This document shows positions 48,173 to 52,081 of a stretch of DNA of 64,000 bases, in pieces. The notes beneath the pieces are model-generated. The model ran no database searches. It was not told the DNA's origin and saw only the letters and a program-made list of their open reading frames with translations. The translations under genes were made by a program, and so were the position numbers. Origin of the DNA: the human T2T-CHM13v2.0 reference genome, Homo sapiens. Location of the stretch: the NCBI RefSeq assembly GCF_009914755.1, contig NC_060931.1; one strand, 5' to 3'. Every line of letters starts with the position of its first letter. Positions within the stretch are counted from its first letter, which is position 1.

Positions 48173-48989
<817 letters not shown>

Positions 48990-49024
48990 TTAACAAAAAT
49001 TGTATTCAAATATTAGAATTTTGG

Positions 49025-49322
49025 AGCCAGGTGCAGTGGCTCATGCCCCAGCACTTTGGGAGGCTGAGACAGGAGGATCACTTGAGGCCATGAGTTCAAG
49101 ACCAGCCTGGGCAAAATAGTGAGACCTCGTCTATACAAAACATTAAAAAAATTAGCCGGACCTGGTGGCATGTGCCTGTGGTCCCAGCTACGGGGGAGGA
49201 TGAGGTGAGAGGATCACTTGGGCCTTTGGAAGTTGAGACTACAGTGAATGGTGATCCCGCCACTGTACTCTATCCAGCCGGGGCATCAGAGCAACACTCT
49301 GTCTCAGACAAAAAAAAAAAAA
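49025..49322 (+). mobile_element. AluJ-family SINE
   Basis: Dimer with AluJ features and A-tail. Confidence 0.9.
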
Positions 49323-49463
49323 TTTGAAAAAAGACAAAATTAGATCCATACTTCATCTATTCAAAAGACAATTCTCCAAACACATCAGGTATCCAAATGT
49401 AAAATATTAAATCATATAATTACTAGAAGAGAACATGAATGAGTTCATTTAAGACATGAATGT

Positions 49464-51291
49464 CAGTGCCGCTACACACATGATCCCATACCAGACACTG
49501 TATATAGGTGATCTCAATGAAAAGTTGCTCAAAACTCAGTGAGGAAGATACATTGTCATCATACCCACTCTGTCGATGGAAAAACCTGATGCAGATAAGC
49601 TATGAGATAGAAGGCCACATATTTCCCTGGGTGGTCTCTCTCAGCCTGATCATGTAAATTAACACCTTATATTCATAGGGATATTCAGAGTCTAAAGAAG
49701 ATTTTAAGAAACAAGGTATCATACCCATTACAGGCAGCCTTGCAGCCTTCTTCAAATTCCTCATGCCACAGAACCTGCAGTGTAATGACACTAGTTAAGT
49801 CCAGGCCTTTTCGGGAAAAGCAAGGGAAGATACTGCCGAAAGGTCGCAGGCTCATTGCAGACGATCTGAAGGCTGGAGCTGTGCTGAAAGTTTTCTTCTC
49901 TAGCCATCTATAATACATAAAGAAGCTGCTCATCGATAAGCTGAAGGGTGTCAGCTTCATTAAGATGAAATTCGAGGACATCAAGGATTGGTCCAACCTA
50001 GTAATGCCACGAGAATAATGGGGATTTTTGCCAAACCTGACCATGCTAACATGACATATCCAAAGACTCAGCTTTAGCACTCACTGCCTTTATTATTGAT
50101 TTGTGACAATCTCTGCGACCCTGGGAACCTGGGGACAATTCTGAGATCTCCAGCTGGGGAAGGCTGCAGCAAAGTGTTACTCACTTTGAAAGGATGTGTG
50201 GATGCCTGGGAGCCCAAAGTGCTACAGGCGGGTATGGGTGCACATTTCCAAGTGCCCATTATCGATAATCTGAAAACGAAACAGTGCCAAATTACCTGCC
50301 CCCTGACACCCAGGTCTGTGTGGCTGACAACTGAAGCCTTTATGCTCAGGCTCAGATGTCTAATAAAGCCAGTGACCATGGCTGGGTGTAGGATTGGCGA
50401 TTCCTGAAGTTTCACAAGTATGAAGAAAAGCAAGGTCTAGAAACTGGAGCCAGTAAAGGTTTGCTGCCTGTTATTGAGGTTCAGAGTTATGACTTGGACT
50501 GGACAGAGGCACCAGCAGCTGTAATGGTTGGTGGCGTGACCTACGGCATGATCCTGGAATCTCTGTAGTTTGCCGAGAGCCCTGCGGGCAAGAGGCTGCT
50601 GATCCCTGTTGCACCTGGAGTGGACAGCCTCAACTCAGCCATGGCTGCACGCATCCTGTTTTTTGAAGGGAAAAGACAACTGCGGGTGAGGGCGGAACAC
50701 TTGAGCAGGGACAGGAGTTACCACGGAGAGGGGACAGAAAAGTGAGTTCTGCTGAGGACATCTCCAGCTCCCCCTATGCTGGCACATCGTTAGGAGGCTG
50801 GCAGAGTCGGAAACTGTGGCCTCTCAGTTGGTGACTGTGGCCTCCATGTTCAGGAGGCAACAGGTAAGCATGATACCATCATATGGTTATAGGAAAAATC
50901 AGAATTTCCATAAATTTCTGCTATTCCTCAGAAATAACAGGTCAAAATCCTTCCTGAGAACCCCCATCTCTTCACTGATTTTGAGGTTATATCTTATTCT
51001 TTTCCTTGGTGACAATACAAATAGGGGATCCACATGGCTCTGTATGTGTGTTTTTAAAAATTGTCCACTGAGAAGCATTTCGTGCCCAGAAAGCTCCTGA
51101 AAGCATCATCTCGGGCAGGGAGGAATTTGCTCCACCAGCTGGTGGGTGTTTTGCAATCATCGAGCACTGGTTATAGGTCATGGCCAAGTCACTCACATGT
51201 GATCATTGGTCAATGGTAAATAAAATAAAGTGTAGAACCAGCAGATTACATTGAAAAGTTTTATTTGTGTGATCAAAAAAATAAATAAAAT
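49464..51291 (+). pseudogene. MRM3P2: Processed pseudogene of MRM3/RNMTL1 (mitochondrial 16S rRNA 2'-O-methyltransferase, SpoU family); symbol from memory
   Basis: 49778-50727 is an intronless match to MRM3 from SVMT(L)VKSRPFREKQGKIL through ICDNL.DPGNLGTILRS, GCVDAWEPKVL.AGMGAHF and VDSLNSAMAA to LSRDRSYH. It has in-frame stops (e.g. CTA TAA, CTT TAG, CTG TAG) and frameshifts. 3'UTR, AATAAA at 51219, A-rich tail at 51275-51291, TSD AAGACATGAATGT (49451-49463) / AAAACAGGAATGT (51292-51304). Confidence 0.93.
49725..49774 (-). pseudogene. GLOD4 exon-2-like 50-nt fragment (antisense within the MRM3 retrocopy), with flanking splice signals
   Basis: Minus strand cag|GTT CTG TGG CAT GAG GAA TTT GAA GAA GGC TGC AAG GCT GCC TGT AAT GG|gtatga = VLWHEEFEEGCKAACNG, versus recalled GLOD4 VLRHEEFEEGCKAACNG. 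Confidence 0.85.
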
Positions 51292-52081
51292 AAAACAGGA
51301 ATGTAGGGAAATCCTTTCTAACTATGACTCAAAATCTAGAAGCATTAAGAGAAAATATTTTACTTTGCAGCTCTTATTGCCAAAGGGATTTTTATCCAGT
51401 GGAAGGCTGACTTCACCAGAGCAAGAAAAATCAGCCAGAGGCATCTGGGATGAATCTTGCAGCTACAGGACCAGCACCCAGACCATCTGTGAGATTTGGG
51501 CAAAACTGTGCTCATCAAGTGCAGCCTACCTCTACCCTCACAGTGTTGCCCACTTCATTCAACTGGGATTTTTTTCTCTATTAGTACTCCACCAAAATTA
51601 GAGCCTCTAGTCTGTTTCTCCAATACCCAGAGGCCCTGCATAGAATTTACTACCATTTTCCTACCAAAGGCCACATCCTATTCCGGAATTCCCCATACTA
51701 TTAGTCGTTAACTAAGGACCTGCTTTAAAATAATAACTCAGAACCAGAATGCCATCAAATTGACTTCCTCTGGTACTTACACTTCCTTGTACATATTTAT
51801 ACCCTGATATGACATGGACCCCTTGCATTACCTGTCATCTCTAATAATTACTGCACAATTGGTTCTTCTCAAATAATGACTCCTGTTAGGACCAAGACCA
51901 GGGCTTCTTTCAACTTTGCATTTTGGACTACTAGCTTGGTTTCCTCAGTTTTTTACCTGCAGTGAAGTCACTCTTCTCAGTGATGCTTTTCCCACACTAT
52001 CCTGCCTTTCCTTTCCTGTGTCCAGTCCCTATTGCTAGAATTAGCTAGCTTTCTTTAATCACCAAATTGCCTTTTATTATG

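What the first reader, a model, noticed from the sequence alone, without database searches (positions are those of the whole stretch)
49464..49800. MRM3 retrocopy begins with antisense GLOD4 exon 2 + intron: fossil of an overlapping antisense-initiated MRM3 transcript
Seen: inside a single TSD-bounded, polyadenylated insertion (49464-51291), MRM3 homology starts at 49778 (C AGT GTA ATG, SVM...). The first 314 nt are not MRM3 coding sequence. Read on the minus strand, 49774-49725 is a 50-nt exon encoding VLWHEEFEEGCKAACNG, flanked by cag and gtatga and followed by ~260 nt of intron-like sequence. Recalled: this peptide is GLOD4 exon 2; GLOD4 and MRM3 are head-to-head neighbours at 17p13.3; and the junction falls at about MRM3 codon 105, where I recall exon 2 begins. 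Inference: the L1 machinery captured an RNA that initiated inside GLOD4 intron 2 on the opposite strand, ran antisense across GLOD4 exon 2 and both its splice sites, and was joined to MRM3 exon 2, skipping exon 1 and its mitochondrial targeting sequence. This would record a germline sense-antisense unit that could mask GLOD4 exon 2 splicing and, via the ATG at 49785, encode an N-terminally truncated, possibly non-mitochondrial MRM3. Alternative: RT template switching at the CTGCAG junction.
Basis: partly seen in the sequence, partly recalled or inferred. Interest (0 to 1): 0.82.

Follow-up and report, generated by a model that had tools for sequence, protein, structure and literature searches.

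The report
Retrocopy of a DBIL5–MRM3 read-through RNA
This dead MRM3 pseudogene preserves an old spliced RNA that started at the neighbouring testis gene DBIL5, crossed GLOD4 exon 2 on the opposite strand and joined MRM3 exon 2; it is a fossil of a read-through transcript, which is a known kind of thing.

Summary
The core observation holds. Window 49464-51290 is one polyadenylated insertion bounded by a target-site duplication (TSD). MRM3 homology starts exactly at the exon 2 acceptor (49778). The 96 nt before it are the antisense of GLOD4's second coding exon plus flanking intron, and the parent has a GT donor right after ...CAGAACCTG.

The reading of the other 218 nt is wrong. They are not GLOD4 intron. 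They map colinearly on the same strand to two blocks 25-28 kb further upstream on chr17:
- 49464-49591 matches the first exon of DBIL5P. The same exon and donor are captured by the chr2 retrocopy DBIL5P2.
- 49592-49679 is an 88-nt excerpt of a ~410-bp repeat about 70 nt past the DBIL5 poly(A) site. In the parent it is bounded by cag| and |gtaagg.

So the template was a six-exon read-through (transcription-induced chimeric) RNA: DBIL5 exon 1, a repeat exon, a GLOD4-antisense exon, then MRM3 exons 2-4. It did not initiate in GLOD4 intron 2, and RT template switching is not needed.

The copy is dead: 5 stops and 2 frameshifts, about 14% diverged. Rebuilt from present-day chr17, the isoform has four upstream ATGs before MRM3 Met108, so a truncated MRM3 protein is doubtful. 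Two upstream junctions are off by 3-5 nt. No transcript data or primate genomes were available. The closest known case is PIPSL. Interest is modest.

The parts
49450..49463 (+). 5' copy of the target-site duplication (TAAGACATGAATGT), preceded by TT (an L1 endonuclease-like TT|AAGA site)
   Evidence: It is 12 of 14 identical to 51291-51304. In the control, 19 of 3000 random placements reach that match.
49464..49591 (+). Block A1: copy of the first (non-coding) exon of DBIL5/DBIL5P, at about chr17:636975-637114. It lies at the edge of a CpG island.
   Evidence: 49485-49591 versus 637009-637114, 81/107 identical, E = 6e-16 in a 110-kb target; the same exon opens the chr2 retrocopy DBIL5P2 (90/132 over 49463-49591). 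There it is spliced at ...ATGAGC|gtaaga (637117) to the ACBP-coding exon. CpG observed/expected is 0.8-1.15 over 636900-638000. The first 21 nt align ambiguously to the present parent.
49592..49679 (+). Block A2: 88-nt excerpt (an 84-nt exon plus the acceptor's cag) of an interspersed repeat at chr17:640382-640468, about 70 nt downstream of the ancestral DBIL5 poly(A) site
   Evidence: 75/88 identical, and the highest-scoring of 37 repeat-type matches genome-wide; the repeat in chr17 spans about 640270-640680, but the window holds only the piece between ...cctaaacag| and |gtaagg. DBIL5P2 ends in poly(A) at about chr17:640314.
49680..49684 (+). Junction A2/A3 with 5 nt (GATAT) not explained by the present-day splice sites. 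The last 3 may be the parent's tag.
   Evidence: Unresolved.
49685..49777 (+). Block A3: exon antisense to GLOD4, at chr17:665088-665180. 49685-49724 is the complement of the start of GLOD4 intron 2, including its gtatga donor. 49725-49774 is the complement of the 50-nt second coding exon. 49775-49777 is the complement of the acceptor cag.
   Evidence: 95%, E = 3e-34, the only genomic match. (94/101). (parent gtgtag|TCAGAG...AACCTG|gtgtga). (GLOD4 identity and exon order). Only 4 of 93 positions differ.
49778..50021 (+). MRM3 exon 2 (chr17:669514-669758). Met108 equivalent at 49785-49787.
   Evidence: (214/247). One 1-nt deletion at 50013 and a stop at 49911.
50022..50192 (+). MRM3 exon 3 (chr17:674393-674560)
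   Evidence: (94.5%). Boundaries are good to about 2 nt.
50193..51273 (+). MRM3 exon 4 with its 3' UTR up to the MRM3 poly(A) site (chr17:677793-678784)
   Evidence: 78% including gaps; 150/990 substitutions, 19 gap events; stops at 50332, 50389, 50566; 1-nt deletion at 50272.
51274..51290 (+). Degraded poly(A) tail
51291..51304 (+). 3' copy of the target-site duplication (TAAAACAGGAATGT)

Best explanation
MRM3P2 is an L1-mediated processed pseudogene. Its template was a six-exon read-through (transcription-induced chimeric) RNA from 17p13.3.

Proposed path of the template RNA:
1. Transcription started at the promoter of DBIL5, the gene for the endozepine-like peptide of male germ cells, now the human pseudogene DBIL5P.
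2. The exon 1 donor skipped DBIL5's coding exon and its poly(A) site.
3. It spliced to an 84-nt exon inside a repeat just downstream.
4. It then spliced to a 93-nt exon lying antisense over GLOD4's second coding exon.
5. It then spliced to MRM3 exons 2-4 and ended at MRM3's own poly(A) site.

The primary transcript therefore ran about 42 kb, antisense through the whole GLOD4 gene. The mature RNA was reverse-transcribed and inserted on chr7 tens of millions of years ago, and it has decayed since.

Shown here: the mapping, the block boundaries, the splice motifs, the TSD, the tail and the disablements.

Inferred: that the blocks were joined by cis-splicing of one long transcript, that this happened in the germ line, and that L1 did the copying.
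For: - Six blocks map in chromosomal order on the + strand of chr17: 637009-637114, 640382-640468, 665085-665180, 669514-669759, 674392-674555 and 677791-678784.
- Homology stops at each block end even when 60-100 nt of parental flank is offered.
- The parent has GT immediately after blocks 2 to 5, and 3 nt after block 1. It has AG at or within 3 nt of each block start.
- Block 1 is a real first exon. The independent retrocopy DBIL5P2 on chr2 has its own 14-nt TSD and poly(A). It begins within about 16 nt of the same 5' end and uses the same donor (637117|gtaaga) to reach the ACBP exon.
- Block 2 is an exon-sized excerpt of a ~410-bp repeat, not a repeat insertion of its own.
- TSD and tail.
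- There is no masked repeat of 100 bp or more between 49273 and 52456.
- DBIL5/ELP is a post-meiotic male germ-cell gene and a pseudogene in humans (passages in PMC2711954 and PMC7057175).
Against: - Junction A1/A2 reads ATG-CAG-ATAAGC. The canonical sites predict ATGAGC + ATAAGC, so there is a 3-nt discrepancy.
- Junction A2/A3 carries 5 extra nt. The present parent has no AG that would explain them.
- Block 1 is only 75.7% identical to the parent. Its first 21 nt align ambiguously.
- The fast whole-genome search with the parental exon 1 found only itself.
- No transcript evidence (ESTs, long reads, CAGE, GENCODE exon models for chr17) could be consulted.
- RefSeq gene extents give no model linking the two genes: DBIL5P is 637710-640622 and MRM3 is 668784-678768.
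- Cis read-through cannot be told apart from trans-splicing using DNA alone.
Confidence: 0.85

Rival explanations
1. An RNA initiated inside GLOD4 intron 2 on the opposite strand, ran unspliced for about 310 nt across GLOD4 exon 2, and was spliced to MRM3 exon 2.
For: The last 96 nt before MRM3 exon 2 are indeed GLOD4 antisense, and the GT-AG junction to MRM3 exon 2 is exact.
Against: Homology to the GLOD4 locus ends at 49682, next to an AG in the parent. A local alignment offered chr17:665000-665260 and did not extend. Sensitive blastn found nothing for 49464-49681 in GLOD4 intron 2. It found two upstream blocks instead.
Confidence: 0.02
2. The retrocopy starts at about 49682. On this reading, 49464-49681 is older chr7 sequence, including an unrelated copy of the repeat, that merely lies next to the insertion.
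For: The 88-nt block belongs to a repeat family with many copies at about 80% identity. Junction A2/A3 is untidy.
Against: - The TSD sits at 49450-49463, not at 49682.
- Blocks A1 and A2 both map to the 32 kb just upstream of the A3 block, in order and on the same strand.
- The repeat piece is cut exactly at a parental acceptor and donor.
- A1 is shared with DBIL5P2.
Confidence: 0.04
3. The chimera was made during reverse transcription, by L1 RT switching templates between separate RNAs. Alternatively it was made by trans-splicing of separate DBIL5 and MRM3 pre-mRNAs, rather than by one read-through transcript.
For: Two junctions deviate by 3-5 nt from the canonical sites. DNA alone cannot separate cis-splicing from trans-splicing.
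Against: - Template switching would need three switches that each land at or next to splice sites, in chromosomal order, on one strand, within 42 kb.
- Blocks A2 and A3 lie outside both genes' mRNAs. A2 is downstream of the DBIL5 poly(A) site and A3 is antisense in GLOD4. This is what continuous transcription predicts.
Confidence: 0.07

Closest known systems
PIPSL (retrocopy of the PIP5K1A-PSMD4 read-through transcript, hominoids)
   Same: Two neighbouring same-strand genes are transcribed into one RNA, joined by intergenic splicing, and the chimera is retroposed by L1 to another chromosome. PMC2773790 (abstract and background passages) calls this co-retroposition from a read-through transcript.
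   Different: PIPSL fuses two coding regions into an expressed, testis-specific gene. Here the upstream gene contributes only its non-coding first exon. Two non-genic exons are interposed, one of them antisense to a third gene, and the copy is a dead pseudogene.
Transcription-induced chimeras / conjoined genes
   Same: The upstream gene's terminal exon and poly(A) site are skipped, and its donor is spliced to exon 2 of the downstream gene, dropping that gene's exon 1. The abstract of PMC2174484 describes the mechanism and its prevalence.
   Different: The evidence here is a genomic fossil, not an RNA. The two partners are about 28 kb apart, with an opposite-strand gene (GLOD4) lying wholly between them.
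Ordinary processed pseudogenes of MRM3 (MRM3P1, chr10)
   Same: Same parent, intronless, on another chromosome.
   Different: MRM3P1 carries the canonical exon 1-exon 2 junction and then runs into intron 2. MRM3P2 replaces exon 1 by three foreign exons.
Processed pseudogenes as records of past splice isoforms
   Same: A retrocopy preserves an alternative isoform of its parent.
   Different: This is an idea I recall from the literature. My phrase search listed no paper holding that phrase, so I cite none.

Membership tests
L1-mediated processed pseudogene (retrocopy) | Intronless copy of a spliced RNA, colinear with the parent's exons | tested here: met
   Six parental blocks abut in the window.
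L1-mediated processed pseudogene (retrocopy) | Poly(A) tail at the parent's polyadenylation site | tested here: met
   Homology runs to chr17:678784, and the RefSeq MRM3 end is 678768. An A-rich run follows at 51274-51290.
L1-mediated processed pseudogene (retrocopy) | Target-site duplication flanking the insert, at a TT|AAAA-like site | tested here: met
   14-nt TSD, 12 of 14 identical. 19 of 3000 random placements reach that match. The site reads TT|AAGA.
Retrocopy of a read-through (transcription-induced) chimera, PIPSL-like | Contains exons of two neighbouring genes on the same strand | tested here: met
   DBIL5 exon 1, validated by DBIL5P2, plus MRM3 exons 2-4. Both genes are on the + strand.
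Retrocopy of a read-through (transcription-induced) chimera, PIPSL-like | Junctions at the parents' canonical splice sites | tested here: inconclusive
   Three of five junctions are exact: A3/E2, E2/E3 and E3/E4. A1/A2 is off by 3 nt and A2/A3 by 5 nt. GT and AG are present at or within 3 nt of all block ends.
Retrocopy of a read-through (transcription-induced) chimera, PIPSL-like | The chimeric RNA is seen as a transcript | not testable with these tools
Literature searches found no paper linking DBIL5P and MRM3 transcripts.
Retrocopy of a read-through (transcription-induced) chimera, PIPSL-like | Fused open reading frame / functional retrogene | tested here: not met
   The DBIL5 coding exon is skipped. 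The copy has 5 in-frame stops and 2 frameshifts.
Natural antisense transcript of GLOD4 | Exonic overlap on the opposite strand with a GLOD4 exon | tested here: met
   Block A3 is the complement of GLOD4's second coding exon and both of its splice sites.
Natural antisense transcript of GLOD4 | Present-day expression and an effect on GLOD4 | not testable with these tools
   No expression data were available.
Template-switch chimeric retrocopy | Breakpoints unrelated to splice sites; partner RNAs from unlinked loci | tested here: not met
   All partners lie within 42 kb, in order, on one strand, with GT/AG at the breaks.

The most novel reading that the evidence does not exclude
The DBIL5P-to-MRM3 read-through, with its exon antisense to GLOD4 exon 2, is not just a fossil. 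On this reading it is still made in the human or primate male germ line from the DBIL5P promoter and has a role. It could damp GLOD4 and canonical MRM3 expression through about 42 kb of antisense or interfering transcription across their shared head-to-head promoter. Or it could yield an MRM3 lacking its first 107 residues, including the mitochondrial presequence, starting from Met108. All parental splice motifs are still intact in the human reference. That keeps this open.
Probability: 0.1. Interest if true: 0.55.

Novelty: new member of a known kind. Interest (0 to 1): 0.35.

Why it matters
- It corrects the anatomy of an annotated pseudogene. RefSeq's MRM3P2 (49777-50909) omits 313 nt of 5' sequence and the 3' UTR, both of which belong to the same insertion.
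- It gives DNA-level evidence that, in an ancestral primate, the testis promoter of DBIL5 drove transcription through GLOD4 in antisense and into MRM3. That is a three-gene sense/antisense read-through unit.
- It names three splice junctions that can be looked up directly in long-read testis data: chr17 T2T 637117>640385, 640468>665088 and 665180>669514.
- If the isoform persists, it is a candidate regulator of the GLOD4/MRM3 bidirectional promoter. If it does not, this remains a tidy but ordinary example of retrocopies recording past transcripts.

Tried and rejected
- GLOD4 intron 2 as the source of 49464-49681. Rejected: there is no homology there.
- An independent repeat insertion as the source of 49592-49679. 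Rejected: only the splice-site-bounded 88 nt of a ~410-bp element are present.
- MRM3P1 as a second witness of the isoform. It is not one. It carries canonical exon 1 + exon 2 + intron 2. One search, the same comparison on a wider locus, was swamped by Alu matches, and only its last lines were used.
- A whole-genome search with parental exon 1 to find further retrocopies. It returned only itself. The fast search misses copies this diverged, so the blank means little.
- Literature. DBIL5P: 15 papers, 14 listed, none on transcript structure judging from the listing and the passage in PMC6453468. MRM3P2 and MRM3P1: 0 occurrences. DBIL5P together with MRM3: 0 of the 19 papers; one CNV paper holds DBIL5P with RNMTL1. 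Six hyphenated fusion or antisense names: 0 papers. One search was badly designed, with generic terms, and none of its 20 listed papers held GLOD4 or MRM3. Supplementary tables of chimeric-RNA catalogues were closed and could hold this pair.
- Resolving the two untidy junctions. I considered adjacent substitutions, indel pairs, or ancestral acceptors 3-6 nt upstream that have since mutated in the parent. None can be chosen without outgroup sequences.
- Dating by presence or absence in primates. Only divergence was used.
- In one search the exon 3/4 boundary was set 2 nt off (50190/50191 instead of 50192/50193). The effect on the counts is negligible.
Full report
**What is in the window.**
- Window 49464-51290 is a single insertion.
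- It is flanked by a 14-nt direct repeat: TAAGACATGAATGT at 49450-49463 and TAAAACAGGAATGT at 51291-51304, 12 of 14 identical.
- In a control, 19 of 3000 random placements in the same window gave a 14-mer match that good.
- The 5' copy is preceded by TT, which is an L1 endonuclease-like site. That motif is from established knowledge.
- The insert ends in a degraded A-run at 51274-51290.
- No masked repeat of 100 bp or more lies between 49273 and 52456.
- RefSeq annotates only 49777-50909 as MRM3P2.

**The MRM3 part.**
- A whole-genome search with 49778-51291 gave 5 matches: itself, three chr17 blocks and the chr10 pseudogene MRM3P1. The chr17 blocks are 669514-669759 at 87%, 674392-674555 at 95% and 677791-678784 at 78%.
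- With parental flanks in view, the window joins MRM3 exons 2, 3 and 4 exactly at ctacag|CAGTGTAATG, ATGG|gttagt...tcag|GGATTT and CAAAG|gtaagg...ttccag|GCTGTG.
- MRM3P1 joins chr17:668789-669123 (exon 1) to the same first base of exon 2 and then continues into intron 2.
- Joining the four exons in a script gives the 420-aa MRM3 open reading frame. Exon 1 holds 314 coding nt, so the junction is in codon 105. The first in-frame ATG of exon 2 is codon 108, which is window 49785-49787.
- The copy is dead. Relative to the parental codons it has 5 in-frame stops (49911, 50075, 50332, 50389, 50566) and two 1-nt deletions (50013, 50272).

**The 314 nt in front.**
- A whole-genome search with 49464-49777 listed 40 matches.
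- Apart from itself, the best match was chr17:665085-665180 on the + strand. It is 95% identical at E = 3e-34, but covers only query 219-314, which is window 49682-49777.
- On the minus strand, 665177-665128 encodes VLRHEEFEEGCKAACNG. This matches residues 32-48 of PDB chain 9csj_A, named as isoform 2 of glyoxalase domain-containing protein 4, at E = 8e-7.
- Residues 1-30 are encoded at 668597-668686. That is about 100 bp from MRM3 exon 1 and head to head with it.
- So the piece is the antisense of GLOD4's second coding exon (50 nt), plus the 3 nt of its acceptor and 43 nt of intron 2 including the gtatga donor.
- The parent reads ...CAGAACCTG|gtgtga on the MRM3 strand. The join to MRM3 exon 2 is therefore a clean GT...AG splice.

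- The other 218 nt are not GLOD4 intron.
- A sensitive blastn of window 49300-51450 against chr17:580001-690000 gave 9 hits.
- Three of the 9 were low-complexity hits at 49300-49350. The other six form one colinear + strand chain.
- The chain starts with 49485-49591 matching 637009-637114 (81/107, E = 6e-16) and 49592-49679 matching 640382-640468 (75/88, E = 6e-19). It continues with the GLOD4-antisense block and MRM3 exons 2-4.
- Local alignments that were offered 60-100 nt of extra parental flank did not extend beyond these block ends.

**What the two upstream blocks are.**
- The gene table puts DBIL5P on the + strand at 637710-640622, inside the span of GEMIN4 (minus strand) and upstream of GLOD4.
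- A Pfam ACBP scan of the genome (15 matches) places the DBIL5P coding homology at chr17:638271-638489. It places a second copy at chr2:63126103-63126267 on the minus strand, which is the annotated DBIL5P2.
- DBIL5P2 is itself a retrocopy.
  - It has a 14-nt TSD with one mismatch and a poly(A) tail at the equivalent of about chr17:640314.
  - It joins ...ATGAGC (chr17:637117, followed in the parent by gtaaga) to CTTCTAGC (chr17:638229, preceded by ctccag).
- Its first exon aligns with window 49463-49591 (90/132). Its TSD-defined 5' end lies about 16 nt upstream of the CAGTGC with which MRM3P2 starts.
- Block A1 is therefore the first, non-coding exon of DBIL5, and both retrocopies record the same promoter.
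- That exon sits at the edge of a CpG island (CpG observed/expected 0.8-1.15 over 636900-638000). This fits its low identity to the decayed copy.
- Block A2 lies in an interspersed repeat. In chr17 the repeat extends over about 640270-640680 when compared with five other copies. The window holds only the 88 nt between ...cctaaacag and gtaagg.
- A2 is thus an exon cut out of the chr17 copy, not a repeat insertion on chr7. It lies about 70 nt beyond the poly(A) site recorded by DBIL5P2.

**Mechanism.**
- The simplest account is a read-through, intergenically spliced RNA. It consists of DBIL5 exon 1, with the coding exon and poly(A) site skipped, then the repeat exon, the GLOD4-antisense exon and MRM3 exons 2-4 with MRM3's own poly(A).
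- This RNA was copied by L1.
- The primary transcript would span about 42 kb (636,975-678,784) and be antisense to all of GLOD4.
- DBIL5/ELP is described as a post-meiotic male germ-cell marker in rodents and as a pseudogene in humans (passages in PMC2711954 and PMC7057175).
- The primary paper on its inactivation in primates was seen only as a reference entry.
- A germ-line promoter fits two heritable retrocopies from one start site. This last step is inference.

**Age.**
- Substitutions against the parent are 236 of 1685 aligned positions (14.0%). Outside CpG they are 180 of 1556 (11.6%).
- By block:

| Block | Differences |
|---|---|
| A1 | 25/106 |
| A2 | 12/84 |
| A3 | 4/93 |
| Exon 2 | 32/244 |
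| Exon 3 | 13/168 |
| Exon 4 | 150/990 |

- A3 is less diverged than the rest (binomial P = 0.0014, uncorrected). This is expected if the parental side is frozen by selection on GLOD4.
- Taking 4-8% for the retrocopy branch, or about 15% for two neutral branches, and a neutral rate of 1-2.2e-9 per site per year (general knowledge), the insertion is on the order of 30-60 million years old. This is a rough figure.
- By the same yardstick DBIL5P2 (about 79-81.5% identity) is older, and MRM3P1 (89-92.6%) is younger.

**Weak points.**
- Junction A1/A2 reads ATG-CAG-ATAAGC. DBIL5P2's donor and today's acceptor predict ATGAGC + ATAAGC.
- Junction A2/A3 has 5 nt (GATAT) between CATAGG and TCAGAG. The parent has ...ccgggtgtag| there.
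- Small mutations in the copy, or acceptors a few nt upstream that have since changed in the parent, could explain both. I cannot decide without outgroups.
- The first 21 nt of the insert align ambiguously to the present parent.

**Coding potential.**
- I rebuilt the isoform from present-day chr17 blocks.
- It has four ATGs upstream of Met108, opening ORFs of 24, 26, 19 and 46 codons. The last of these starts in the GLOD4-antisense exon and overlaps Met108 out of frame.
- Efficient translation of an N-terminally truncated MRM3 is therefore doubtful, and the RNA looks like an NMD substrate. Both points are inference.

**Rivals.**
- A retrocopy starting at 49682 beside older chr7 sequence is contradicted by the TSD position, by the colinear origin of A1 and A2, and by the splice-site-bounded repeat excerpt.
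- Template switching would need three switches landing at splice sites in chromosomal order.
- Trans-splicing cannot be excluded from DNA alone. A2 and A3 lie outside both mRNAs, which favours one continuous transcript.

**Comparison with what is known.**
- Retroposition of a read-through chimera is known from PIPSL (PMC2773790, abstract and passages).
- Intergenic splicing that drops the upstream terminal exon and the downstream first exon is the usual pattern of transcription-induced chimeras (abstract of PMC2174484).
- This case differs in three ways. It fuses no coding regions, it passes through an exon antisense to a third gene, and it is a dead copy.
- In the searchable library I found no paper linking DBIL5P and MRM3 transcripts.
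- RefSeq gene extents contain no linking model.
- GENCODE, EST and read data and supplementary tables were out of reach, so the isoform may be catalogued elsewhere.

**Verdict.**
- The origin of the RNA was misread. It is a DBIL5-MRM3 read-through fossil, a new member of a known kind.
- Interest is modest (0.35).

Noticed in passing
L025/L026 (chr2:63124165-63126520, minus strand): DBIL5P2 is a full retrocopy of a two-exon DBIL5 mRNA. It has a 14-nt TSD (one mismatch) and a poly(A) tail at the equivalent of about chr17:640314. It carries an Alu-sized insertion at chr2:63124756-63125043. Its 5' end is about 16 nt upstream of that of MRM3P2.
   Followed up: partly
L012 (chr10:21412970-21413900): MRM3P1 holds canonical MRM3 exon 1 + exon 2 and then continues into intron 2. 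It lacks chr17:669783-670068, an Alu-like segment of the parent. So either that Alu entered the parent after the copy was made or it was lost from the copy. The RefSeq annotation ends at 21413548, but homology runs to at least 21413900.
   Followed up: partly
L020 (chr17:640678-641000): A tandem array of about 85-bp units derived from the 3' part of the same interspersed repeat that supplies block A2. It lies just downstream of the RefSeq end of DBIL5P.
   Followed up: no
window 49685-49777: The GLOD4-antisense block differs from its parent at only 4 of 93 positions, against 232 of 1592 elsewhere (P = 0.0014). This is probably because the parental side is held by selection on GLOD4. It suggests the retrocopy's own branch is short, about 4-8%.
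   Followed up: partly
chr17:668784-672323 (gene table): RefSeq's GLOD4 extent reaches 672323, about 3.5 kb beyond the head-to-head start of MRM3. At least one GLOD4 model must therefore start inside MRM3 intron 2 and overlap MRM3 exons 1-2 in antisense. Exon tables for chr17 were not available to check this.
   Followed up: no
window 48986-49323: A masked repeat (48986-49272) followed by a poly(A) run at about 49310-49322. It has Alu-like matches to chr17 and chr10 Alus, and lies about 140 nt upstream of the retrocopy's TSD.
   Followed up: no
chr17:665178-665186: The donor of the antisense exon (CTG|gtgtga) is the reverse complement of GLOD4's own acceptor and the end of its polypyrimidine tract (tcacac-cag). 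One stretch of DNA therefore serves as an acceptor on one strand and a donor on the other.
   Followed up: no
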